From IMG/VR virus record IMGVR_UViG_2558860170_000002: a DNA stretch of 37,042 nucleotides. The stretch is one strand, 5' to 3'. Below are positions 18,423 through 37,042 of the stretch, piece after piece. The notes beneath the pieces were generated by a model that did not search any database, was not told the origin of the DNA, and saw only the letters and a program-made list of their open reading frames with translations. This DNA is from a virus (taxonomy: Duplodnaviria > Heunggongvirae > Uroviricota > Caudoviricetes). The stretch's first letter is position 1; each line of letters starts with the position of its first letter. Made by a program: the position numbers and the translations under genes.

Positions 18423-21074
18423 ATGAGTGATATTTTCTCAGGAAGAGAATTATCAGTACAGTATAATGCTGATATTGGTAACAGAACACCACAGGGAGCA
18501 GGCAATGTAGTAATTAAACAGATTAATACTTTTCCAACCTTAACAATAAATTCAGAAGCAAATAATTTTGAAACGTATGATAGTGATTACAGGACAGTAC
18601 TACTATCTGATAAATCAGTAGCACCATTTGATATTGTAGTTAACTACCTACCTGATGATCCTACACATCAATTCTTGGATAATGCCGCTAAGTCTCAGCA
18701 GCTTTTCCAGATCATCATTCAGTACCAGATGAATAAGGATGAAAATACCATTACTTATGCGATGGTGAATGGTTATATCACCTCTTATAAGTTGGACGGT
18801 GATAAAGGTTCAGTAGTAACCAAGGCATACAGTTTTGCCCCACATGATGTGATCGCACGTGCAATGACCATTAACGCACTATCGCCAATCTATCAGGGGG
18901 ACTACGGTTTAGGTTCGAACACTACGGATGTACCTCAGTACTCACCATCAGTACCTACGGGTAACAGCTTCATCAAAGTACCATCATCTCAAGCAGGCAA
19001 TCCTGCCGGGGCGGATCTGATGGGAGTAGGGCTTGTAGATGGCACTACTGTAAGTTCTCTTGCGATGACAAAGACGGGTACTCTAAGTATCTATGCAAAG
19101 AACGCTACAACCGCCTGGACACGCATATATACCGCTACACAGATGGACGGGCGATACGTACCCCTTACACGTACCATCAACGGCCATGCACTCACGGCCA
19201 ATTTAGTACTGAACAGTGAAGATACAGGTTCAGTACCTGATACACGTACTGTGAATGGTAAGCCTCTAAGTGAGGATGTAGTACTTACCAGTACTGATAC
19301 CGGCTCTGTACCAGATACACGGACAGTTAATGGTCATGTACTCAGTGAAGATATAGTACTGAGTAGTGAAGATACAGGTTCAGTACCTGACACGCGTACA
19401 GTGAACGGTCATGTACTTAGTGAAAATGTAGTACTGAGTAGTGAAGATACAGGTTCAGTACCTGATACACGTATGGTCAACGGTCATGTACTCAGTGAGG
19501 ATGTAGTACTTACCAGTACTGATGTTGGCTTAGGGAAGGTTACAGATGATGCCCAGCTTACGATAGCAGGTAATCTAAGTGATCTGGGGGACGTGGAAGA
19601 AGCACGTATTAACCTTGCTGTTTACTCAATGGATGAAGTAGATGCAGAGGTAACGGCTTTAGCTGACAGTATTACTTCCCTTGATTCCGCTTCCATGAAG
19701 AAAGCGAGTAACCTTTCTGATCTATCCAGTCTCTCTACAGCACGTACTAACCTACAGGTGAACCGTTTGACTCAGGGTGCTACGTACACCGATCTGATGA
19801 GTAATGACCTGACTAACCGTATCCGAATTCAGGATAACGGGGCATGGGGTGCAAGTACTGGTACTGGATGGATTGCTTTAGGTATAGGTCAGGGGGGGAC
19901 AGGGGCTACAGATGCTTTGAGTGCTCGCCTAAACTTTCAGGTGGATCGCTTTAATCAAGGTAGTAATTTAACAACTATTAAATCCGCTGATTCTTCCGCT
20001 GCATTAGTGGTTTATGATGGAGGGCAATGGGGTTCAGCTACATATATTGCGGGTGCTTTCACTGGCTGGAAAGCATTAGCAATTCCGCAGGGCGGTACTG
20101 GTGTTAAGACTCAGGCTGAGTTATGGCCTGCGATTCGTCCTACGGGTGCAACTTCTTTAGCAGGAGATCCTGTCTCTGATTCTGACGCGACTACCAAACG
20201 CTGGGTTGAAAACTTGCTGAGTAGTCGTACTTCAGTTAGTCCTCAATGGGATGTTATTGCTTCTTCCCCTTCCTCTACGGCAATTGGTAGTTATGTAACT
20301 GGAGGGCGTATTCGTTCGATATGCAACATTGGTACATCAACTGAAATATCTGGTGGTTTTCGGGTTGGTAAAACGATGGGACAGACTGGACAGGCTGATC
20401 TCACCCTTTTTATTTCTGAAAATGGTGCAGAGGATAAACTATGGGGGCTAAAAGGGCCGACTGGAACGATCCTAACTGATGTTCAATCAGGATGGATGAC
20501 TAATACCGCTGTTTCGGGACCGACAGATGCCAATACCATCACCTTTAACGGTATGTATGCAGGGCCAGGTGACTCAGGTATTAACTATAGTGAAAAATAT
20601 TCCCCTTTATTGCACATGCAAAGATACCCAGGGGCAAATCGCTCTCAGCTTCAGATAGACGGTGGTGGTACTTTAAGAGTACGAGGCGGGAACGGTACAA
20701 CATGGTTTGGATGGTTAGTAATGCAAGCTCAAGGTACATCAGGTCGTGAGTTTAAAAGAGACATAACTCCAGCAAATCCAGTTGAAGCATTAGATCGGAT
20801 AATGTCACAAGATTTAGTAACGTTTATCTACAAGGATGATGAACAAGAAAGGGTTAGGTTTGGTGTTATCGCCGAAGATGCTGAGTTGACTGCTCCGCAG
20901 TACATTAAGCATGATGAAGAAACAGTTGAAATAGAAGGGGAGATTGTCACTCGTGATCATCCACGTGTTGATTTAAATCCAATAGTGATGGACTTGATGG
21001 GAGCTATTCAAGCCCAACAAGAAGAAATTAATCAGCTAAAAGATTTAGTACAACAGCTATTAAATAATAAATAA
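18423..21074 (+). CDS. tail fibre-like protein: major-tail-protein-like N-terminal domain, 25-aa tandem repeats, C-terminal intramolecular chaperone (peptidase S74-like) domain
   Basis: N-terminal about 150 aa is paralogous to the product of 21133-21606 (shared DIFSG...NTF...VNYLPDD..HQ.L). Five 25-aa repeats (TRTVNGHVLSEDVVLSSEDTGSVPD). The C-terminus SGREFKRDITP...ERVRFGVIAEDAE...NPIVMDLMGAIQAQQEEINQLK matches the S74 pattern SDxRxK...GxIAQE...coiled coil. Confidence 0.55.
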   Translation: MSDIFSGRELSVQYNADIGNRTPQGAGNVVIKQINTFPTLTINSEANNFETYDSDYRTVLLSDKSVAPFDIVVNYLPDDPTHQFLDNAAKSQQLFQIIIQYQMNKDENTITYAMVNGYITSYKLDGDKGSVVTKAYSFAPHDVIARAMTINALSPIYQGDYGLGSNTTDVPQYSPSVPTGNSFIKVPSSQAGNPAGADLMGVGLVDGTTVSSLAMTKTGTLSIYAKNATTAWTRIYTATQMDGRYVPLTRTINGHALTANLVLNSEDTGSVPDTRTVNGKPLSEDVVLTSTDTGSVPDTRTVNGHVLSEDIVLSSEDTGSVPDTRTVNGHVLSENVVLSSEDTGSVPDTRMVNGHVLSEDVVLTSTDVGLGKVTDDAQLTIAGNLSDLGDVEEARINLAVYSMDEVDAEVTALADSITSLDSASMKKASNLSDLSSLSTARTNLQVNRLTQGATYTDLMSNDLTNRIRIQDNGAWGASTGTGWIALGIGQGGTGATDALSARLNFQVDRFNQGSNLTTIKSADSSAALVVYDGGQWGSATYIAGAFTGWKALAIPQGGTGVKTQAELWPAIRPTGATSLAGDPVSDSDATTKRWVENLLSSRTSVSPQWDVIASSPSSTAIGSYVTGGRIRSICNIGTSTEISGGFRVGKTMGQTGQADLTLFISENGAEDKLWGLKGPTGTILTDVQSGWMTNTAVSGPTDANTITFNGMYAGPGDSGINYSEKYSPLLHMQRYPGANRSQLQIDGGGTLRVRGGNGTTWFGWLVMQAQGTSGREFKRDITPANPVEALDRIMSQDLVTFIYKDDEQERVRFGVIAEDAELTAPQYIKHDEETVEIEGEIVTRDHPRVDLNPIVMDLMGAIQAQQEEINQLKDLVQQLLNNK
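19167..19529 (+). repeat. 75-bp tandem repeat, about 4.8 copies, in frame within the tail fibre-like gene
   Basis: Unit boundaries read directly at 19167, 19242, 19317, 19392 and 19467; the units are closely similar. Confidence 0.8.
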
Positions 21075-27229: not shown

Positions 27230-27320
27230 TAGACTGGCCCCCTGAATCTCCAGACAACCAGTATCACTTAAATAAGTGATAGTCTTAATACTAGTTTTTA
27301 GACTAGTCATTGGAGTACAG

Positions 27321-27686
27321 ATGATTGATGTCTTAGGGCCGGAGAAACGCAGACGGCGTACCACACAGGAAAAGATCGCAATTGTTCAGCAGAGCTTTGA
27401 ACCGGGGATGACGGTCTCCCTCGTTGCCCGGCAACATGGTGTAGCAGCCAGCCAGTTATTTCTCTGGCGTAAGCAATACCAGGAAGGAAGTCTTACTGCT
27501 GTCGCCGCCGGAGAACAGGTTGTTCCTGCCTCTGAACTTGCTGCCGCCATGAAGCAGATTAAAGAACTCCAGCGCCTGCTCGGCAAGAAAACGATGGAAA
27601 ATGAACTCCTCAAAGAAGCCGTTGAATATGGACGGGCAAAAAAGTGGATAGCGCACGCGCCCTTATTGCCCGGGGATGGGGAGTAA
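27321..27686 (+). CDS. insC: IS2 OrfA (InsC)
   Basis: Identical translation to copy A. Confidence 0.85.
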
Positions 27687-28549
27687 GCTTAGTCAGCCGT
27701 TGTCTCCGGGTGTCGCGTGCGCAGTTGCACGTCATTCTCAGACGAACCGATGACTGGATGGATGGCCGCCGCAGTCGTCACACTGATGATACGGATGTGC
27801 TTCTCCGTATACACCATGTTATCGGAGAGCTGCCCACGTATGGTTATCGTCGGGTATGGGCGCTGCTTCGCAGACAGGCAGAACTTGATGGTATGCCTGC
27901 GATCAATGCCAAACGTGTTTACCGGATCATGCGCCAGAATGCGCTGTTGCTTGAGCGAAAACCTGCTGTACCGCCATCGAAACGGGCACATACAGGCAGA
28001 GTGGCCGTGAAAGAAAGCAATCAGCGATGGTGCTCTGACGGGTTCGAGTTCTGCTGTGATAACGGAGAGAGACTGCGTGTCACGTTCGCGCTGGACTGCT
28101 GTGATCGTGAGGCACTGCACTGGGCGGTGACTACCGGCGGCTTCAACAGTGAAACAGTACAGGACGTCATGCTGGGAGCGGTGGAACGCCGCTTCGGCAA
28201 CGATCTTCCGTCGTCTCCAGTGGAGTGGCTGACGGATAATGGTTCATGCTACCGGGCTAATGAAACACGCCAGTTCGCCCGGATGTTGGGACTTGAACCG
28301 AAGAACACGGCGGTGCGGAGTCCGGAGAGTAACGGAATAGCAGAGAGCTTCGTGAAAACGATAAAGCGTGACTACATCAGTATCATGCCCAAACCAGACG
28401 GGTTAACGGCAGCAAAGAACCTTGCAGAGGCGTTCGAGCATTATAACGAATGGCATCCGCATAGTGCGCTGGGTTATCGCTCGCCACGGGAATATCTGCG
28501 GCAGCGGGCTTGTAATGGGTTAAGTGATAACAGATGTCTGGAAATATAG
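27644..28549 (+). CDS. insD: IS2 transposase OrfB (InsD)
   Basis: Identical translation to copy A. Confidence 0.9.
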
Positions 28550-28565
28550 GGGCAAATCCAGTGGT

Positions 28566-30872
28566 GACTATACGAGTACTAAAACTCTTGCTGCAAAATA
28601 TGCTGGTTCGAAATGGACAAATAAATTTCTTGGTAAGGGTATTGTTAGTATCAGTACCGTTATCTTAAAAACTCAAGATTCATTAGAAAATAATATTCTT
28701 GTTAATGATCAATTCGCTTTAACTGTAGAAATGAAAGGGCAGGTGATTTATGATTTTGTTGATGGTACTTATAAAGCAAGTAGTAACCCTCCTTCAATTA
28801 TCTATGATTACTTAACAAATTCAATCTATGGTATGGGTATTGATCCATCATTGATTAATACCGATACGTTTGCAGAAACCGCAGCATATTGTGATGCTTT
28901 TGAATATTATGCTAATGGTGCTATCAGTTATCAAAAAACCTATAAAGATAATATTGAAAATATCTGTCAGTCATTTGGCGGCATCATGTATGTACATGCC
29001 GGACAAATCTGTATTACCACAGACCGCAAATCGGTATCCGTAGCCTCATTTGATGAGCGTAACATGGTAGGGGCGGTACAGGTTTCTACTTCTGGCGGTA
29101 CTGACTACTTCAACGTAGTCGATTGCAAGTTTACTAACCCTGAATCGATGTACACCACTGACGTAGTACGTATCCCTTCCGATATCACTACGGATGAAGC
29201 AGTACAGCATGATGGACAGGTCATAGCATTATCACGCGATTACTCATGGTCATATGATCAAGAGGTGATTGCAAAAATGGCTAACGTTGATGTACTCAAG
29301 GCTAAGTATGCCCTGCGTACTATCAGCTTCACCACAAGTGAAGGTTGGGATCTCGAAGTATGGGATGCGATCAATGTCAGCAATGAAGAACTCGCTATCT
29401 CAGGCAAATTTAAAGTACTCAATAAAGATATCAGCACCGATCAAGAGAACGTTGGCTATGTAACCATCACGGCAGTAGAAGCACCTGATGCAATGTATGA
29501 TGGTATTGATCCGGGTATCTGGTCGCCTGGTGGGGTAATTAACTTCCCTGAACTACAGGTACTACCGCCAACGAACCTACAGGCAGTACGTAAGGGGAAT
29601 ACTACTTCTGGTTCAATCGTGGATCTTACCTGGGATGCTTCACCAGATCCGTATCTGCGTGGGTACTATGTTTACTACCGTCTTAACGGTTCCAGTACCT
29701 GGACGTATGCGGGGCAGACTGGCGTACAGAAGCTTGATTATGAATTATTTGGATTGTCTGATACTGCAAGCTACGACTTTTCGGTAGAGGCTTACAACAA
29801 CTTAGGGCTGGTATCCAAGAAGCTTTCCCTAACTGGCATTGTTCCAACATTCAACTTTGCACTACCTGCGGTAACGCGTGTAGTACTGACAAATAAAACA
29901 GAATCAGCGTATGTAACTGACTCACCAGATTTCAATATTGCCTGGGATTCACAAAAAGATATCAGAGTGAATAACCGATCATTTAGTGAGTACTTCAAGT
30001 ATTACGTTATTAAAATCTATGACGGTACTAAATTAGTAGATACATTCTATACGCAAAGTAATGCCTTTAATTTCACTCTTGAAATGAACCGTCTGAAAGT
30101 ACGTAAGCCTACCATTGGTATTATCGCACAGGGATTTAATGATGGTACATATTCAGAGGAAGTGAAAATAACCGTAGAGAATAAACAGTGTGGTTTAGTA
30201 GAGGATGTTAGCTTTACGGGTGGTTTTGGTAATTTGTTTGCTTCATGGACTAAATCTACTGAACGTGATTATGCAGGTGCGATTATCAGTATTGTTAATG
30301 GTACTAATACACGTATATTCACCAGTTATGCACCTGAATTTGATTCAATACCAAACATCACTGATGGTGAGTATAAGGTTAAGATGGGATTCTTTGATGT
30401 GTTTGGTACTGATGATATTCAATATTGTCCAGAACAAACAATCAGTATCAACTCCAAGTACCAGTTTACCGAAGATGATGCAGAGGCAATTAACGGGATT
30501 CTTGATTTAGAAGATCGCCTGACTGGTACCATTAATGATGCGGTCAAAATTGCCAATAAGAATACCAGTACTGTTATCAGTGCATCAGAGGCACGTACCA
30601 ATGATAAAATCACTGCCAGTGAGAAAACGTTAAGTACTCAGATCACTGGGGTAAATAGTTCCTTATCACAGAAACTTAGCACCGTTGAAAGTACTGCCAA
30701 TGGTAACAAGGCCAGTATCCAGACACTATCCCAGACGGTAACGGATAACAACAAAGCTCAGACTACAGCAGTCTCACAGCTACGTAGTGATGTGAATGGA
30801 CAGATTGCCACTGTTAACCAGTCAATGAGTACTAAAGCCGATAAATCTACTGTAGATGCTCAGTACTCACTA
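28566..30872 (+). pseudogene. J-like host-specificity protein, central portion
   Basis: About 769 aa with a fibronectin-III-like segment (LTWDASPDPYLRGYYVYYRLNGSSTWTY) and a Ser/Thr-rich C-terminal region. The stop codon is supplied by the IS911 terminus at 30873. Confidence 0.6.
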
Positions 30873-30880
30873 TGAAGTGG

Positions 30881-32049
<1,169 letters not shown>

Positions 32050-32076
32050 TGGAGCACCTGTGTTGTTCTGAGGTGA

Positions 32077-32607
<531 letters not shown>

Positions 32608-32764
32608 TAAATAATTCAGGGATTATTAACTGTAACCTCATTTCAAAAGGATACATAAATGAAATCTAATGAACGTACTTTCAATAGTACCAGTACTAAC
32701 CCATTCAGTATTAGCGGAAAAGAAACAATTGGAATGAAGAAAAGGATTTACAGGAGTAAGAGCT

Positions 32765-33061
32765 ATGGCACAGGGATTACAATGTTGGAATGCAGCGGGT
32801 GTATTAGTAGTAGATCTGACTGATTATAACATACGTTTTATGGGTACTTATACTGTCAAGGCTACTTCTGCACAGACCTATACTGTATCAGTACCAAATA
32901 TGAAAACTACAGGCTGGTTTGTACACTATGCCCCCGCCAGTGATACCTTTAATGAGTGGTCAGCCTTTTGTAATAATGGGTCATTTACTGCGGTTTATTT
33001 GCCAACATATGCACCGTTAGCTGGTAACTACACTTTTAACGTATATAAGTGGACGGCGTAA
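32765..33061 (+). CDS. hypothetical tail-associated protein (98 aa)
   Basis: Its N-terminus is paralogous to the next gene (MA.G...N.AG.L..D.T). Confidence 0.4.
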   Translation: MAQGLQCWNAAGVLVVDLTDYNIRFMGTYTVKATSAQTYTVSVPNMKTTGWFVHYAPASDTFNEWSAFCNNGSFTAVYLPTYAPLAGNYTFNVYKWTA

Positions 33062-33062
33062 G

Positions 33063-33719
33063 ATGGCAGGTTTCGAGGTATATAATTCAGCGGGTGCACT
33101 GACTATAGATAGTACTAACAAGTCGATAATGACGGGTGCAGTAAAGGCCATGGGAAATCTAACTGATACGGGATACTACACAGGCTTTACCTGTGCCTTC
33201 GGTAATGGTGGATCGCTCGGTTTCGTTATGCCATCAGTAGTAGCTAACAGGAACACAACACAGTACTGGTTCCAGATACAGAAAGACGGGGCATGGTGTT
33301 TCCCTGGTGCCTATATGTTCCAGCCTGGCATGGGCAGGTTCATGACAAGTAGTCACACGGCTACCCCCACATCTGGTTTTCTTGATGTGTTCAGTGAAGA
33401 AGGTACTTTAATCTGGTCTGCTGCATCAGCGGCAACAATGCCACGTATCAGGGGATTTTTGACAGCACCTGCGGCTACCGATCTCAGTACTGCCATTACG
33501 GTAACGTCTCCAGTAGCTGATCCCTGGTTCTGCTGGTCACAATGTCCGGGGAACATATCAGATGATGGTACAGTAATTGGGTACTCTGGTCTGGTTATCA
33601 GGCGTAATTCCAGTACTTCATTCAGTCTACAGTACGTTTCAAAGAACCAGAAAACCTACCGCCAGGCAATGGGGAATAATGGTATCCAGATAGCATTGGC
33701 GACATTTACAGGGTATTAA
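33063..33719 (+). CDS. hypothetical tail-associated protein (218 aa)
   Basis: Paralogous N-terminus to 32765-33061; downstream of the J-like gene. Confidence 0.45.
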   Translation: MAGFEVYNSAGALTIDSTNKSIMTGAVKAMGNLTDTGYYTGFTCAFGNGGSLGFVMPSVVANRNTTQYWFQIQKDGAWCFPGAYMFQPGMGRFMTSSHTATPTSGFLDVFSEEGTLIWSAASAATMPRIRGFLTAPAATDLSTAITVTSPVADPWFCWSQCPGNISDDGTVIGYSGLVIRRNSSTSFSLQYVSKNQKTYRQAMGNNGIQIALATFTGY

Positions 33720-33756
33720 TACAATAACAATAACAATAACAATAACAATAACAACA
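33717..33756. repeat. hexanucleotide microsatellite (AATAAC), about 5-6 copies
   Basis: Direct reading: tAATAC AATAAC AATAAC AATAAC AATAAC AATAAC AACAAAGGG, ending 13 bp upstream of the ATG at 33770. Confidence 0.9.
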
Positions 33757-33769
33757 AAGGGATTTCAGT

Positions 33770-34042
33770 ATGGATATCGGTGCTATTTTAGCTCTTGTTA
33801 TTTCTGGATGCGTATTCCTTTATACTATCTTTAGAGATAATACAAAGGATACGAATGATCTATTAACTCGCGTTGCTACTCTTGAAACTACCATTGCTGT
33901 ACTGGAAAGTAGTATTTCCCGTATTGAGGATGATCAGGATAAGATGAGAGATACACTAAGTAAACTGGAAACACAAATCCATGAACTTGATGTTAAGATT
34001 GAAAGGATTATTGCAATTCTTCAGCAGAAACAACGACCATAA
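33770..34042 (+). CDS. small membrane-anchored coiled-coil protein (holin- or i-spanin-like)
   Basis: N-terminal transmembrane helix (ILALVISGCVFLYTIF) then a coiled coil of about 60 aa; adjacent to the endolysin. Confidence 0.4.
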   Translation: MDIGAILALVISGCVFLYTIFRDNTKDTNDLLTRVATLETTIAVLESSISRIEDDQDKMRDTLSKLETQIHELDVKIERIIAILQQKQRP

Positions 34043-34085
34043 AAAAAGGCATAGTATGTCATTCGTACTATGCCTTTTCTTTATT
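34041..34085. terminator. bidirectional rho-independent terminator
   Basis: A7, then GGCATAGTA stem, 9-nt loop, TACTATGCC, then TTTTCTTTATT. Lies between the convergent genes at 33770-34042 and 34081-34530. Confidence 0.65.
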
Positions 34086-34530
34086 TGTTTTTAAGTACTG
34101 CAATCATGGAATTCACACGGTTTGGTGTCTGCCTGTACCATAGAGAACACTTAGCCTGTTTAATTGCTTCAAGGTAATCATGTGCTTTCAGGGCTGCTAA
34201 CATCTTACGGAATTTCTTCACCCCGCCAATACCTAACTGGAAGGTCATGATAATAATAAAATCATTCCAGTCATCGGGAAGATTTAACCCTAATGTCTGT
34301 ACCTGCATAATTGTTTTGGCTAAATCGCGAGATAGTAACTTGTCTGCTTCGCTTTCAGTAATGCCAGTACTAAAATCTTCTCCCGCCTGAATTAAGTGAC
34401 CATATCCAATAGTACTACATCCTAAACTATCAGCATATGGATAGAATTTCCCATTTCTGAAGTACTTCAAATTTGCCTGATACTCTTTAGTACCTTCATA
34501 TTCTTTTAATCGTGTTTTTAAATCGCTCAT
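34081..34530 (-). CDS. endolysin, T4-type lysozyme (glycoside hydrolase family 24)
   Basis: E...D...TIGYGH catalytic region and C-terminal SLWYRQTPNRVNSMI, which closely resembles T4 lysozyme SRWYNQTPNRAKRVI. Confidence 0.8.
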   Translation of the reverse strand: MSDLKTRLKEYEGTKEYQANLKYFRNGKFYPYADSLGCSTIGYGHLIQAGEDFSTGITESEADKLLSRDLAKTIMQVQTLGLNLPDDWNDFIIIMTFQLGIGGVKKFRKMLAALKAHDYLEAIKQAKCSLWYRQTPNRVNSMIAVLKNK

Positions 34531-34566
34531 TTACTAAATACCTATAATGAATTTATAGGAATATTT

Positions 34567-35001
34567 ATGATGAGTGAATGGAAATACTCGGATGATTGGA
34601 GCGAGGAGGAAATGTTATCCGGTGAATATGCTGGTTTCGTTTATATCTTTCAGTTTGAGGATGGTTCTAATTATGTCGGTGCTAAGCAAATCTATCAGCG
34701 GGTTAAGGATGCGAGAAAGCTAAAGCCCACTTCAAAGGAAAATGGCTGGCGTGAGTACCTCAGTAGTTCCAATGTCGTTAAAAACAAAATTGAAAATGGT
34801 GAACAGTACTCAAAAACGATTCTATGGTGCTTCGCAACTATGCGAGAGGTAATGATTGTAGAGGCAATACTGATCCTTCATCAGATGCTTAAACCGGAAT
34901 GTTTGAATCTGGCAATGATGAGTAAGATTAGATCACCAAATGCAAAGGATAAAAAAAGACTACTCGGAATAGTACAGGAACTATTGGAGTACTTGAATTG
35001 A
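34567..35001 (+). CDS. hypothetical protein, possible GIY-YIG-like motif
   Basis: GFVYIF...(9 aa)...YVG resembles the GIY...YIG spacing; downstream Arg and Glu are present. Weak. Confidence 0.3.
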   Translation: MMSEWKYSDDWSEEEMLSGEYAGFVYIFQFEDGSNYVGAKQIYQRVKDARKLKPTSKENGWREYLSSSNVVKNKIENGEQYSKTILWCFATMREVMIVEAILILHQMLKPECLNLAMMSKIRSPNAKDKKRLLGIVQELLEYLN

Positions 35002-35010
35002 GGTAAATAT

Positions 35011-35589
35011 ATGGCAAGTGGAATAAATGGGATTGGTAGTATAAGGAACTATATACAAACGCAGGGAGTTAGATTAAATAATCAATTCCAGAATGAAATA
35101 ATTAAACGTTCCAAGCTACTATCCCAAAGAATGCAGGGTGATTTGAATAATAGCGTTGACCGTGGGGCAGTGGGCTTTACTCAACGTTCCATCCTTTTCT
35201 TCTATAGAAAGGTTGGGAGAAATTCAGTTACATCGACCATCATGGTTAAAGATATTCAGGCTAAGTACCTTTATCAAGTACTGGTACAGCCAAAGGCAAT
35301 TGATAAGTTTATACCTACTTCATCTACAAGATTAACTAAGCAGGGCAACATTTCAGGACTGAAAAAGAATCTTTTAAGTGAACGATATAAGGTAGTGAAG
35401 GGTAAGAATGGTAAAGAACGATTAATTGATACCGCAAAGAAAGATACCAAGAAGAAAACCAAACGTGTAATTGGCTTACGTGAGAAGAAACAACGTCGCC
35501 TTATCTATGACTTCTATAAGGAAGCCAATGATGGTGTAAGGGTAATTATGAGCGGTATTCAGGGAACATTCAGGATAAGTAGACAATGA
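35011..35589 (+). CDS. hypothetical protein (192 aa, basic C-terminus)
   Basis: Intact ORF with backbone-like composition. Confidence 0.4.
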   Translation: MASGINGIGSIRNYIQTQGVRLNNQFQNEIIKRSKLLSQRMQGDLNNSVDRGAVGFTQRSILFFYRKVGRNSVTSTIMVKDIQAKYLYQVLVQPKAIDKFIPTSSTRLTKQGNISGLKKNLLSERYKVVKGKNGKERLIDTAKKDTKKKTKRVIGLREKKQRRLIYDFYKEANDGVRVIMSGIQGTFRISRQ

Positions 35590-35897
35590 ATTTTGAGCAA
35601 CATTATGGTGATTTAATAAGCAAGATTAAGCTAAATGGCATGACACCAGATGGTAATAGTATGCCAATTAACAAATGTTTTCTTGATAAGAAATTTCAAA
35701 AGGTCGTTAAGAAAAGTAATTATCAGATTGATAGCTATATGAACGTTATTTATGAGAAGAAGAAAGATTTCAAAGTTGGTGAAGTACTTGAATGGGAATT
35801 ACAGGGTGAAAAGATGCCTGTATTTCTAATTGAGAGTAAAAAGCTCTTTGTGAAGGGTAAACATTTTTGGGTATATGCCGTGGGGATTATTGAATGA
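35586..35897 (+). CDS. hypothetical protein (103 aa)
   Basis: Intact ORF overlapping its neighbours by 4 bp (translationally coupled arrangement). Confidence 0.4.
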   Translation: MNFEQHYGDLISKIKLNGMTPDGNSMPINKCFLDKKFQKVVKKSNYQIDSYMNVIYEKKKDFKVGEVLEWELQGEKMPVFLIESKKLFVKGKHFWVYAVGIIE

Positions 35898-36187
35898 TTA
35901 GTATATTGATTGAGTTTCTGAAGTCAGGATTGGATTTTTTCATTAAGAAGAAAACTATTGAACAGGAAGTAAAGAAAACGAATGTAGAAGGGCAGATTGA
36001 AACGAATAAAGAAGAGATTGAAAAGGTAACATTCCACTGGCGTAATGCCCTCGGTTTTGTACTAACCCTTATCATTCTCTATAACTGGATCATAGTACCA
36101 GTACTTGATGCTTTTGGAATTATTGTGATCCAAGTTCCATTAGGACAACTTTTGCAAGTGCTATTGATTATGGTTGGTGGAAGCTGA
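35894..36187 (+). CDS. putative holin-like membrane protein
   Basis: Charged N-terminal region followed by two hydrophobic helices at the C-terminus; lies in the lysis region. Confidence 0.35.
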   Translation: MISILIEFLKSGLDFFIKKKTIEQEVKKTNVEGQIETNKEEIEKVTFHWRNALGFVLTLIILYNWIIVPVLDAFGIIVIQVPLGQLLQVLLIMVGGS

Positions 36188-36247
36188 AAGATTTTTCCTT
36201 TAATATGTGTTTTGAGTTAATAAAATAGCAATCTAAGGATTTGATTT

Positions 36248-37042
36248 ATGAGTGATGCAATTACTACAGCAGCAATAAAAAAATTGTATGGACTATCCGC
36301 TGGGCAATGTAATATTTGCCGAACTTCTCTTTTTAAAGAGCAGGTTCACATCGGACAAATGGCTCATGTAATAGCCAAAAGCCCAAAAGGACCAAGGGGC
36401 GATGACCTGTTAGCAAATGACAATTCTTATGAAAATCTTATCCTGCTTTGTGCAAATGATCATATTCTTGTTGATAGAGATCCATTCACTTATACAGTAG
36501 AAAAATTGCATCAAATCAAAAGTGAACATGAGGCTTATATACAGGGTGCAACCGATAATACATTATTTTCAGATAAAAAAAGACAGTCAGATGTGGACTT
36601 TTTAAACGCTTACTTCCACTTTACACCGTTTGCGAGGGTACGTTCATTAGTTGAAACTTTACCTAATTCTTTTCACATCAATCTTCTTATTTTTGGAGAT
36701 CAGTTTGATAGTATTTTAAGGGATTTTCCAGCGAGCTATCCTTTAAATGATAAATTACTCCACGGTCATTTCCAAAGTTTTATTGATTCGTATAAAAATA
36801 TTGATTTTATCATATCTGGACATTTGCCGATTTCCGATAATAGAAACATTCAGGTGTTTGGTGGTGCGAATCATAATCTTCTTTGTCATTTCAATTATGA
36901 TGAGCTACCATCCGATAAAGCACTGATAATAGAACAAGATTTGATTTCACATAAAATATCTCTTCTTAATGCTTATGAAGGTCTTATAAATTACCTTAGA
37001 GCTTATTACCCTGAGGTGGAAATTTACTCTCCTATTCTATGA
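36248..37042 (+). CDS. HNH-domain protein with uncharacterised C-terminal domain of about 170 aa
   Basis: N-terminus C-N-I-C...HIGQMAHVIAKSPKGPRGDDLLANDNSYENLILLCANDH fits C-x2-C...H...N...C-x2-H. The gene is very AT-rich with a single GTAC in 795 bp, and ends exactly at the window edge with a stop codon. Confidence 0.5.
   Translation: MSDAITTAAIKKLYGLSAGQCNICRTSLFKEQVHIGQMAHVIAKSPKGPRGDDLLANDNSYENLILLCANDHILVDRDPFTYTVEKLHQIKSEHEAYIQGATDNTLFSDKKRQSDVDFLNAYFHFTPFARVRSLVETLPNSFHINLLIFGDQFDSILRDFPASYPLNDKLLHGHFQSFIDSYKNIDFIISGHLPISDNRNIQVFGGANHNLLCHFNYDELPSDKALIIEQDLISHKISLLNAYEGLINYLRAYYPEVEIYSPIL

What the first reader, a model, noticed from the sequence alone, without database searches (positions are those of the whole stretch)
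33717..33756. Hexanucleotide microsatellite immediately upstream of a lysis-region gene
(AATAAC) x 5-6 ends 13 bp before the start codon of the holin/spanin-like gene and abuts the stop codon of the upstream gene. Simple-sequence repeats of this kind are rare in phage genomes. Copy-number slippage could alter promoter or ribosome-binding-site spacing and so tune expression or lysis timing.
Basis: seen in the sequence. Interest (0 to 1): 0.4.

Follow-up and report, generated by a model that had tools for sequence, protein, structure and literature searches.

The report
Hypervariable six-base repeat in Shigella prophage
A perfect AATAAC tandem repeat between two genes of a decaying Shigella sonnei prophage changes copy number (5 to 11 units) between otherwise identical strains, but it lies outside the promoter and ribosome-binding-site spacers, so it is most likely an ordinary slippage marker and not a switch for lysis.

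Summary
(AATAAC)x5 lies at 33723-33752, 3 nt after the TAA stop of a 218-aa gene and 17 nt before the ATG of a 90-aa gene. It is the only array of its kind in the window, and no shuffle reproduced it.

The window is identical to Shigella sonnei 53G. Thirteen S. sonnei-type records carry 5 to 11 hexamer units, always in 6-nt steps. The 2.8 kb of flanks differ by 0-1 substitutions. Relatives that are 4-6% diverged all carry one unit. It is therefore a true hypermutable VNTR that grew by slippage from an A-rich proto-repeat.

The array lies entirely 5' of the Shine-Dalgarno (AAGGG, 8 nt from the ATG), so SD-ATG spacing is the same in every allele. No -35/-10 pair straddles the array. Predicted RBS accessibility is unchanged for 0-12 units.

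The prophage is defective (IS elements split the terminase and J-like genes), and one strain has an IS inside the 90-aa gene. Near-neutral slippage is the best reading.

One minority reading remains open. The array is a single-stranded (AAN)n tract abutting the SD, which is the Hfq A-R-N motif, and could tune translation in a graded way.

The 90-aa gene heads a conserved lysozyme/holin-like module, but it could not be shown to be a holin, spanin or releasin.

The parts
33063..33719 (+). Upstream 218-aa gene (unknown function; phrog_4524, precomputed Pfam label DUF8377). Its TAA stop at 33717-33719 lies 3 nt before the array.
   Evidence: ORF list; PHROG E=1.6e-54; Pfam label on homologues; conserved at 74-100% identity in relatives.
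33723..33752 (+). Perfect (AATAAC)x5 hexanucleotide array, the variable part of the VNTR. Read as RNA it is (AAU AAC)n, a run of A-A-N triplets.
   Evidence: Allelic series of 1-11 units in related records. Predicted single-stranded, P(unpaired) 0.86-0.91 for 5 or more units.
33753..33762 (+). Degenerate last unit AACAAA, running into the Shine-Dalgarno AAGGG(A) (33757-33762). The last G is 8 nt from the ATG. This segment is identical in all S. sonnei alleles.
   Evidence: Read from sequence. It is constant across alleles. Relatives carry AAGGA or AGAGG at the same place.
33770..34042 (+). Downstream 90-aa gene. It has an N-terminal transmembrane helix (residues about 4-21), then a 69-residue slightly acidic coiled-coil domain. 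It is a hypothetical protein conserved in Enterobacteriaceae prophages.
   Evidence: ORF; hydropathy and charge; 113 homologues, all unnamed or hypothetical; alignment A2; Pfam hits all below cut-off; hhalign against Mu gp25 gives 18% probability.
34044..34078 (.). 15-bp hairpin with T/A runs on both sides. It is a terminator-like element shared by the 90-aa gene and the convergent lysozyme gene.
   Evidence: inverted repeat I2, 94% complementary.
34081..34530 (-). Convergent 149-aa phage lysozyme (PF00959) with no N-terminal hydrophobic SAR segment. It is always paired with the 90-aa gene in relatives.
   Evidence: Pfam E=1e-11; PHROG; synteny in 13 of 14 related loci.
33696..33725 (+). The only sigma-70-like match near the array (TTGGCG, 18 nt, TACAAT). 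Its -10 hexamer ends at the first array unit, so the array would be leader and not promoter spacer. This is a consensus match at background frequency only.
   Evidence: 7 sites found against 7.2 expected in shuffles.

Best explanation
The feature is a genuine, hypermutable hexanucleotide VNTR, (AATAAC)n. It lies in the intercistronic leader between a 218-aa gene at the end of the tail-fibre region and a 90-aa membrane-anchored coiled-coil gene. That gene heads a conserved lysozyme/holin-like module of a lambda-like prophage in Shigella sonnei.

The ancestral leader, still seen in non-sonnei relatives, is a 38-nt A-rich spacer with cryptic 6-nt periodicity (TATAAA TACAAA AACAAT AACAAC AAAG) and a single AATAAC unit. 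In the S. sonnei lineage the proto-repeat crossed the length threshold for replication slippage. It now gains and loses whole units far faster than point mutations accumulate.

The array is entirely 5' of the Shine-Dalgarno and 3' of any plausible -10 element. Copy number therefore changes only the length of an unstructured A-rich leader. It does not change the SD-ATG or -35/-10 spacing.

I conclude that it is a near-neutral by-product of slippage, comparable to the 6-7-bp loci used for MLVA typing of S. sonnei. At most it is a weak, graded modulator of translation. It is not an on/off contingency switch.

Shown: the array, its allelic series, the invariant flanks, the constant SD spacing, the flat predicted accessibility, and the defective state of the prophage. 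Inferred: slippage as the mechanism, and neutrality.
For: 1. Host and clonality. Window 30770-37042 is 100% identical to S. sonnei 53G HE616528.1, and sources name the proteins 'Shigella sonnei'.
2. Allelic series. Spacer lengths are 50, 56, 62, 68, 74, 80 and 86 nt in 13 independent S. sonnei-type records, always in 6-nt steps. Three of these are complete chromosomes (HE616528.1, CP026802.1, CP179990.1), and identical alleles recur in independent assemblies.
3. Invariant flanks. The 1400 nt on each side show 0-1 substitutions among these records.
4. Length dependence. Five relatives with 54-93 substitutions on the left flank and 38-56 on the right (1,400 nt each) all have the same 38-nt, one-unit spacer.
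5. Anatomy. AACAAAGGGATTTCAGT-ATG is identical in every S. sonnei allele, and no promoter straddles the array.
6. Folding. The array is unpaired, and mean P(unpaired) of SD..AUG is 0.53-0.57 for 0-12 units. RNAalifold finds no conserved structure.
7. No selection for phage function in this host. Two identical 1331-bp IS copies with 5-bp target duplications split the large terminase and the J-like gene, and a third IS splits J again. One strain has an IS inside the 90-aa gene itself.
8. Precedent. S. sonnei has hypervariable 6-7-bp VNTRs with 2-34 repeats that are used as neutral typing markers (PMC3310650).
9. Assembly breaks. Many short-read S. sonnei assemblies break at the array: C-truncated 209-217-aa and N-extended 91-95-aa partial proteins, and a contig that starts 4 nt before the ATG. 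This fits read-level length heterogeneity.
Against: Neutrality is inferred, not measured. No expression, read-level or phylogenetic rate data could be obtained.

The array is not featureless. It forms 12-24 consecutive A-A-N triplets directly abutting the SD. This is the motif Hfq binds next to SD sequences in vivo (PMC4104026). Several relatives without the array already carry 5-6 A-R-N triplets ending at the SD.

In intact relatives of the prophage, leader length could affect translational coupling or ribosome standby binding. The equilibrium folding model would not capture either effect.
Confidence: 0.75

Rival explanations
1. Graded translational tuning ('rheostat'). The single-stranded (AAUAAC)n = (AAN)2n tract next to the SD is a loading platform for Hfq (distal face, A-R-N motif) or for ribosomal protein S1 / a ribosome standby site. 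Slippage changes how many proteins can load, and so heritably raises or lowers translation of the 90-aa lysis-module gene.
For: There are 12 consecutive A-R-N triplets in the window allele and 24 in the longest allele. The run ends in the AAA triplet (33756-58), whose last two A's are the first bases of the SD AAGGG (33757-61). The one-unit ancestor has exactly 6, the capacity of one Hfq hexamer (P=0.009 against shuffles). Five relatives without the array have 5-6 triplets ending at the SD (P 0.02-0.05 each). The array is predicted to be unpaired. Rfam gives a sub-threshold match to the 5' A-rich Hfq-binding motifs of Pseudomonas CrcZ (23.5 bits, E=4e-4; alignment). Hfq was shown to crosslink to A-R-N repeats associated with SD sequences in E. 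coli (PMC4104026).
Against: The A-R-N run follows automatically from the repeat unit and from A-rich low complexity. Four relatives (L008, L009, L014, L020) have no such run. The CrcZ score is far below gathering (95 bits). The relatives are not independent, and the P values are uncorrected for multiple testing. The prophage is defective in this host, and the target gene is IS-disrupted in one strain, so there is little to select for. No binding or expression data exist.
Confidence: 0.12
2. One reading: a contingency locus in which copy number changes promoter (-35/-10) or SD-to-start spacing, switching the downstream gene on and off and so resetting lysis timing.
For: Copy number is highly variable. 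The array is next to a translation start. The gene lies in a module with a lysozyme and a holin-like gene.
Against: The SD and its 8-nt spacing to the ATG lie 3' of the array and are identical in all alleles. Only 17 nt separate the array from the ATG, which leaves no room for a -10 element plus leader. The only promoter-like match has both hexamers 5' of the array and occurs at background frequency. The unit length of 6 would not cause frameshifts even if the array were translated. The array lies in no ORF of the listed frames.
Confidence: 0.03
3. The length differences are assembly or sequencing artefacts of an AT-rich simple repeat.
For: Short-read assemblies often break at this array.
Against: Different alleles occur in three complete chromosomes. 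The same alleles recur in independent records, and one contig is shared by 20 or more samples. All differences are exact multiples of 6, with perfect flanks.
Confidence: 0.02

Closest known systems
Hypervariable 6-7-bp VNTR loci of Shigella sonnei used for MLVA typing (SS1, SS3, SS6, SS9, SS10, SS11; Liang et al. 2007 scheme, summarised in PMC3310650 and PMC3420240)
   Same: Same host species and same unit size class (6 bp). The allele range is similar: 5-11 here, against 2-18 for SS9, 2-10 for SS10 and 2-9 for SS11. Variation is in whole units in a clonal background, and slippage is the presumed mechanism.
   Different: It does not appear to be one of the published loci. The forward primers of SS1, 3, 6, 9, 10, 11 and 13 do not occur in the 37-kb window. 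The other 6-bp loci, SS15 and SS17, have ranges (2-4; 0, 2-3) that exclude the 5 units of strain 53G. The primers of the remaining loci could not be obtained.
Phase-variable simple-sequence contingency loci acting through promoter or RBS spacing (for example the TA repeats between -35 and -10 of Haemophilus influenzae hifA/hifB, and the poly-G/C tracts in Neisseria porA/opc promoters; from my own knowledge)
   Same: An intergenic short tandem repeat that is hypermutable by slippage and sits immediately upstream of a gene.
   Different: Here the array lies outside both functional spacers: it is 5' of the SD and 3' of any candidate -10. No on/off logic is evident, and the repeat unit is 6 nt.
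Hfq distal-face A-R-N / 'CA motif' (AAnAAnAA) sites next to ribosome-binding sites (E. coli Hfq CLIP, PMC4104026; Pseudomonas Hfq-Crc targets and the CrcZ decoy, PMC8266614, PMC9890229)
   Same: A single-stranded run of A-A-N triplets abutting a Shine-Dalgarno. There is sequence resemblance to the CrcZ 5' motifs.
   Different: No evidence of Hfq binding here. It is not a CrcZ homologue (23.5 bits against 95). The tract length is variable and arises from a microsatellite, which to my knowledge has not been described for Hfq sites.
Mu gp25 'releasin' / DUF2730 (PMC9239132), as the nearest described protein type for the downstream 90-aa gene
   Same: The protein is about 90-99 aa. It has an N-terminal TMD after 3-4 residues, a cytoplasmic-type charged helical domain of about 70 residues, and an endolysin gene within a few genes. 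The alignment is collinear from Met1.
   Different: Homology is not demonstrated (hhalign 18%; PF10805 not recovered in my scans). The host phage is lambda-like, not transposable. The neighbouring lysozyme has no SAR domain and is on the opposite strand.

Membership tests
Bacterial VNTR / microsatellite (slippage-prone simple sequence repeat) | Head-to-tail perfect copies of a short (1-9 nt) unit, beyond chance | tested here: met
   5 perfect AATAAC units, TRF 100% matches; 0 of 100 shuffles gave a match.
Bacterial VNTR / microsatellite (slippage-prone simple sequence repeat) | Copy number differs, in whole units, among otherwise near-identical genomes | tested here: met
   7 length alleles (50-86 nt, steps of 6) in 13 S. 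sonnei-type records whose 2.8-kb flanks differ by 0-1 substitutions.
Bacterial VNTR / microsatellite (slippage-prone simple sequence repeat) | Instability depends on array length (short arrays stable) | tested here: met
   One-unit spacers are length-invariant across 5 relatives with 54-93 (left) and 38-56 (right) substitutions per 1,400-nt flank. Arrays of 5 or more units vary at about 0% divergence.
Published S. sonnei MLVA26 loci | Amplified by the published primers of a named SS locus | tested here: not met
   Forward primers of SS1, 3, 6, 9, 10, 11 and 13 (PMC3420240, Table 1) are absent from the window at up to 3 mismatches. The SS15 and SS17 allele ranges are incompatible. Primers of the other loci are not available: Liang 2007 is not held.
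Phase-variable contingency locus (promoter or RBS spacing type) | Repeat lies between -35 and -10, or between SD and the start codon, or inside an ORF with a unit not divisible by 3 | tested here: not met
   The array lies 5' of the SD. The SD-ATG segment is identical in all alleles. No straddling promoter was found. The array is not in an ORF, and the unit is 6 nt.
Phase-variable contingency locus (promoter or RBS spacing type) | Expression of the adjacent gene changes with copy number | not testable with these tools
   This needs reporter fusions. The in-silico proxy (SD/AUG accessibility) is flat at 0.53-0.57 for n=0-12.
Hfq distal-face (A-R-N)n binding site | At least 3-6 consecutive A-R-N triplets in single-stranded RNA near an RBS | tested here: met
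   12 triplets in the window allele, reaching the first two bases of the SD; predicted unpaired.
Hfq distal-face (A-R-N)n binding site | Demonstrated Hfq binding or Hfq-dependent regulation | not testable with these tools
   No CLIP, EMSA or hfq-mutant data are available for this locus.
Rfam CrcZ (RF01675) | Score at or above the gathering threshold (95 bits) | tested here: not met
   23.5 bits and 13.6 bits. Only the 5' A-rich motifs align.
DUF2730 / Mu gp25 releasin (for the 90-aa gene) | Significant match to PF10805 or to Mu gp25 | tested here: inconclusive
   PF10805 is absent from my hmmscan of the protein and from the 25 of 30 matched families shown for its 22 homologues at E<=0.01. Precomputed tables list it as 'weak'. 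hhalign against Mu gp25: probability 18%, E=1.3e-3. BLASTP: E=0.004.
DUF2730 / Mu gp25 releasin (for the 90-aa gene) | N-terminal TMD (N-out, C-in) plus a cytoplasmic domain of about 70 aa, with an endolysin gene within 5 genes | tested here: met
   Hydropathy is 1.95 over residues 1-19, Arg22 follows the TMD, and the C-domain is 69 aa with 14 acidic and 11 basic residues. A lysozyme gene is adjacent.
DUF2730 / Mu gp25 releasin (for the 90-aa gene) | Occurs in transposable (Mu-like) phages, typically with a SAR endolysin | tested here: not met
   The prophage has TerS/TerL and a lambda J-like tail tip. The lysozyme N-terminus (MSDLKTRLKEYEG...) is hydrophilic.
Two-component spanin (Rz / i-spanin) | i-spanin accompanied by an embedded, overlapping or adjacent o-spanin lipoprotein gene with a lipobox | tested here: not met
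   The only overlapping ORF (33981-34094, 37 aa) has no N-terminal signal or lipobox. The Rz-like PHROG hit is weak (E=2.7e-5). The Cys14 in 'ISGC' is replaced by Leu or Ser in most homologues.

The most novel reading that the evidence does not exclude
The microsatellite is a slippage-adjustable protein-loading platform. It is a single-stranded (AAN)n tract abutting the Shine-Dalgarno that binds one Hfq hexamer per three repeat units (or S1 / standby ribosomes). Copy number would then heritably set, in graded steps, the translation of a membrane-anchored, releasin-like lysis-module protein. This would be a 'rheostat' form of contingency locus acting through an RNA chaperone and not through promoter or RBS spacing.
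Probability: 0.08. Interest if true: 0.6.

Novelty: new member of a known kind. Interest (0 to 1): 0.25.

Why it matters
As it stands, this is one more hypervariable VNTR in a clonal pathogen. It is apparently not among the loci of the S. sonnei MLVA scheme that I could check.

It has practical value as a fast-evolving marker for fine-scale strain discrimination. It also explains recurrent contig breaks in short-read S. sonnei assemblies.

It gives a clean natural example of microsatellite birth. A one-unit proto-repeat stays stable across 4-6% sequence divergence, while arrays of five or more units vary among sequences that are otherwise identical.

It would matter more only if the (AAN)n tract proved to be an Hfq or S1 platform whose length tunes translation.

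Tried and rejected
1. Near-identical DNA in the phage, complete E. coli genome and plasmid collections: no match. A distant search in phages hit only the lysozyme gene.
2. The genome-contig scan gave only two distant relatives, Scandinavium and Pluralibacter, neither with an array.
3. A metagenome scan with the right-flank pattern found nothing.
4. Literal text search of papers for the repeat motif in all registers and on both strands found nothing relevant.
5. Liang 2007 and Chiou 2009 (full MLVA primer tables) are not held.
6. An SD-sequestering hairpin (AACAA.GGG paired with CTCTTGTT) seen in single-sequence folds, and an 8-nt complementarity between AATAACAA and codons 9-11, were tested. 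RNAalifold on 11 diverse relatives predicts no conserved pairs, and accessibility does not change with copy number. Rejected.
7. A stop-region/start-region helix closing the array as a loop was not reproduced in local folds or in relatives. Rejected.
8. A lipoprotein reading of 'LVISGC': the Cys is not conserved. Rejected.
9. Spanin: no o-spanin partner. DUF2730 membership: inconclusive.
Many are giant-virus MAGs, where I assume, without checking, that it codes for poly-Asn. The motif is therefore uncommon but not unique, and this scan says little about phages.
11. The sub-threshold Rfam STnc40 hit at 34042-34115 (27 bits against 45) overlaps the terminator hairpin. I treated it as noise.

Full report
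**Observation**

The sequence at the given coordinates reads ...GGG TAT TAA | TAC | AATAAC x5 | AACAAAGGGATTTCAGT | ATG.
- The TAA at 33717-19 ends a 218-aa ORF (33063-33719).
- The five perfect units span 33723-33752.
- A degenerate unit AACAAA runs into a Shine-Dalgarno AAGGG (33757-61). Its last G is 8 nt from the ATG at 33770 of a 90-aa ORF (33770-34042).
- Tandem Repeats Finder gives 33721-33754, period 6, 5.7 copies, 100% matches. It is the only perfect multi-copy short-unit array in the 37 kb.
- A three-unit probe matches only here and in none of 100 dinucleotide-preserving shuffles.

The last perfect unit ends 17 nt before the ATG, and the array starts 3 nt after the stop codon.

**Where the window comes from**

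There was no near match in the phage, complete E. coli genome or plasmid collections. An exact look-up of the 90-aa protein found it on hundreds of contigs. One locus, HE616528.1 positions 1473064-1479336, is 100% identical to window 30770-37042. The sources name the proteins 'Shigella sonnei', including 'Shigella sonnei 53G'.

The window is a lambda-like prophage:
- small and large terminase;
- a J-like central tail fibre with a Phage_Tail_Tip domain;
- then genes of 98 aa, 218 aa and 90 aa;
- a convergent phage lysozyme (34081-34530, minus strand);
- a GIY-YIG-like gene and two unknown genes;
- a 97-aa protein that just reaches the Pfam cut-off for GTA_holin_3TM.

In this strain the prophage is defective.
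- Two 100% identical 1331-bp IS copies with 5-bp target duplications (11001-12331 and 27230-28560) split the large terminase gene and the J-like gene.
- A third, IS911-like element (about 30874-32118) splits J again.
- Relatives have an intact 1100-aa J.

**Copy number in relatives**

Related loci came from IMG/VR and from exact-protein look-ups. I measured the spacer between the stop codon and the ATG in each.

Thirteen independent S. sonnei-type records have the following spacers.

| Spacer (nt) | Hexamer units | Records |
|---|---|---|
| 50 | 5 | window/53G and one other |
| 56 | 6 | four records; one contig shared by 20 or more samples |
| 62 | 7 | two records, including CP026802.1 |
| 68 | 8 | one record |
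| 74 | 9 | two records |
| 80 | 10 | one record |
| 86 | 11 | CP179990.1 |

- Every difference is a multiple of 6.
- Two haplotypes exist: TAC(AATAAC)n and TAC-AAAAAC-(AATAAC)n.
- The 1400 nt on each side of the array show 0-1 substitutions among these records.
- In contrast, five relatives with 54-93 substitutions on the left flank and 38-56 on the right (1,400 nt each) all have an identical-length 38-nt spacer. It reads TATAAATACAAAAAC-AATAAC-AACAAAGAGGTTCCAGT, with a single unit.
- One intermediate record has two units.
- More distant relatives (74-87% protein identity; Scandinavium, Pluralibacter, IMG/VR contigs) have 40-46-nt AT-rich spacers with no hexamer array. One of them has an (AAT)5 run at the same spot.

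This is the classic picture of microsatellite birth and length-dependent slippage. A cryptically periodic A-rich leader crossed a threshold in one lineage and became hypermutable.

Many short-read S. sonnei assemblies break at the array. The evidence is partial 209-217-aa products of the upstream gene, partial 91-95-aa products of the downstream gene, and a contig that begins 4 nt before the ATG. This is consistent with length heterogeneity in reads but does not prove it.

**Is it a known typing locus?**

S. sonnei is typed with 26 VNTRs. Several are hypervariable with 6-7-bp units and 2-34 repeats (PMC3310650).
- The forward primers published for SS1, 3, 6, 9, 10, 11 and 13 (PMC3420240) are absent from the whole window, even with 3 mismatches allowed.
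- The other two 6-bp loci, SS15 and SS17, have ranges (2-4; 0, 2-3) that exclude the 5 units of 53G.
- The original primer table is not held, so the remaining loci could not be tested directly.
- A literal text search for the motif found nothing relevant.

I file the array as a new member of this known kind, with that caveat.

**Can copy number change promoter or RBS spacing?**

The anatomy says no.
- The segment AACAAAGGGATTTCAGT-ATG, which contains the SD and its 8-nt spacing, lies 3' of the array and is identical in all S. sonnei alleles.
- Only 17 nt separate the array from the ATG, so a -10 element cannot lie downstream of it.
- The single promoter-like match nearby (TTGGCG-18-TACAAT, 33696-33725) has both hexamers 5' of the array. 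It was found at background frequency, 7 sites against 7.2 expected.
- If that promoter is real, the array is leader and not spacer.
- The array is in no listed ORF.

Folding model mRNAs with 0-12 units gives two results. The array is unpaired (P 0.86-0.91 for 5 or more units). The mean unpaired probability of the SD..AUG segment is constant at 0.53-0.57. Hairpins seen in single-sequence folds are not conserved: RNAalifold on 11 diverse relatives predicts no pairs.

What copy number does change is the length of an unstructured A-rich leader, and with it the stop-to-start distance.

**What the downstream gene is**

The 90-aa protein has an N-terminal transmembrane helix after four residues, then a 69-residue helical domain with 14 acidic and 11 basic residues.
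- Its 113 database relatives are all 'hypothetical' proteins of Enterobacter, E. coli, Klebsiella, Cronobacter and S. sonnei prophages. They are strongly conserved.
- Pfam matches are coiled-coil noise below every cut-off.
- The best PHROG hits are an unknown family and a weak Rz-like spanin match.
- No o-spanin partner ORF exists.
- The lipobox-like ISGC is not conserved.
- Precomputed tables flag DUF2730, the family of the Mu gp25 'releasin' (PMC9239132). My own comparison with Mu gp25 is collinear but weak: hhalign 18%, E=1.3e-3, and BLASTP E=0.004.
- The phage is not Mu-like, and the lysozyme lacks a SAR segment.
- Synteny is strong. The order 90-aa gene, convergent lysozyme, GIY-YIG-like gene, 192-aa gene and holin-like gene is kept in 13 of 14 related loci, including a group with different tail-fibre genes.

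'Lysis-region gene' is a fair description by context. 'Holin/spanin-like' is not established. 'Releasin-like architecture' is the closest described analogy, and membership is inconclusive.

**Mechanism and rivals**

I commit to replication slippage producing a near-neutral VNTR (confidence about 0.75). The hypermutability is shown. The neutrality is inferred from four points:
- the position outside the functional spacers;
- the flat predicted accessibility;
- the defective state of the prophage;
- an IS insertion inside the 90-aa gene in one strain, at the position equivalent to 33817.

The main rival (about 0.12) is graded translational tuning.
- As RNA the array is (AAU AAC)n, that is 12-24 consecutive A-A-N triplets that run up to and overlap the first two bases of the SD.
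- Hfq binds A-R-N repeats associated with SD sequences in vivo in E. coli (PMC4104026).
- The one-unit ancestor has exactly six such triplets.
- Several array-less relatives have 5-6 triplets ending at the SD, although four relatives have none.
- Rfam gives a sub-threshold match to the A-rich Hfq-binding 5' motifs of Pseudomonas CrcZ, 23.5 bits against a gathering score of 95.

This is a resemblance that follows largely from the repeat unit itself. It is a lead and not evidence of function.

Spacing-based phase variation (0.03) and an assembly artefact (0.02) are effectively excluded.

**Verdict**

The finding is a real and strikingly polymorphic microsatellite. It is of an ordinary kind for this host and has no demonstrated regulatory role. 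Interest is modest (0.25). Novelty: new member of a known kind.

Noticed in passing
window 11001-12331 (-) and 27230-28560 (+): Two 100% identical 1331-bp IS3-family elements (IS2-like by my recollection of its ends) with 5-bp target duplications (GAATG, GTGGT). One splits the large terminase gene (10598-11041 and 12372-13832). The other splits the J-like tail gene. The prophage is therefore defective in this strain.
   Followed up: partly
window about 30874-32118 (-): An IS911-like element (the OrfA product of 31747-32085 begins [18 protein letters not shown]...) is inserted a second time in the J-like gene. Related S. sonnei records lack it and have an intact 1100-aa J.
   Followed up: partly
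L043 (GCA_026013135.1), equivalent to window 33817: In another S. sonnei genome the same 1331-bp-type IS is inserted at codon 16 of the 90-aa gene, just downstream of a 5-unit array. The gene is therefore dispensable in the lysogen.
   Followed up: yes
window 19204-19518: A 75-bp tandem repeat, 4.2 copies, 79% matches, in frame inside the 883-aa ORF 18423-21074. This probably means repeated 25-residue modules in a large structural protein.
   Followed up: no
window 33770-36187 and loci L003-L025: A conserved module: the 90-aa TM/coiled-coil gene, a convergent lysozyme, a GIY-YIG (SegE-like) gene, a 192-aa gene, a 103-aa gene and a 97-aa holin-like gene. It is kept even in prophages with different tail-fibre genes. 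The endolysin on the opposite strand, sharing a bidirectional terminator (34044-34078) with the 90-aa gene, is an unusual lysis-cassette layout.
   Followed up: partly
L007 3655-3690; L014-L023 about 2960-2990: Other slippage-prone sequences occur at the equivalent leader. These are an (AAT)5/(ATA)5 trinucleotide run in L007, and an A4/A5 homopolymer length polymorphism among otherwise near-identical loci of the 67%-identity group.
   Followed up: no
window 33721-33787 (+): A sub-threshold Rfam match to the Pseudomonas sRNA CrcZ (23.5 bits, gathering 95, E=4e-4). It is confined to CrcZ's 5' A-rich AAnAAnAA motifs. This reflects motif resemblance, not homology.
   Followed up: yes
S. sonnei draft assemblies (P0001, P0117, P0120, P0126, P0128-P0131; L166): Contigs of many short-read assemblies end 1-9 codons before the stop of the 218-aa gene, or begin 1-5 codons before the ATG of the 90-aa gene. 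The array is therefore a recurrent assembly break point.
   Followed up: partly
whole window: G+C is 36-46% across most of the prophage. From my own knowledge this is well below the roughly 51% of Shigella/E. coli chromosomes. No complete E. coli genome carries a near-identical copy of the 1.6-kb segment searched (33000-34600), although the closest relatives are in Enterobacter, Kosakonia and related genera.
   Followed up: no
window 34042-34115 (-): A sub-threshold Rfam hit to the Salmonella sRNA STnc40 (27 bits against 45) overlaps the bidirectional terminator hairpin. It is probably only the hairpin.
   Followed up: no
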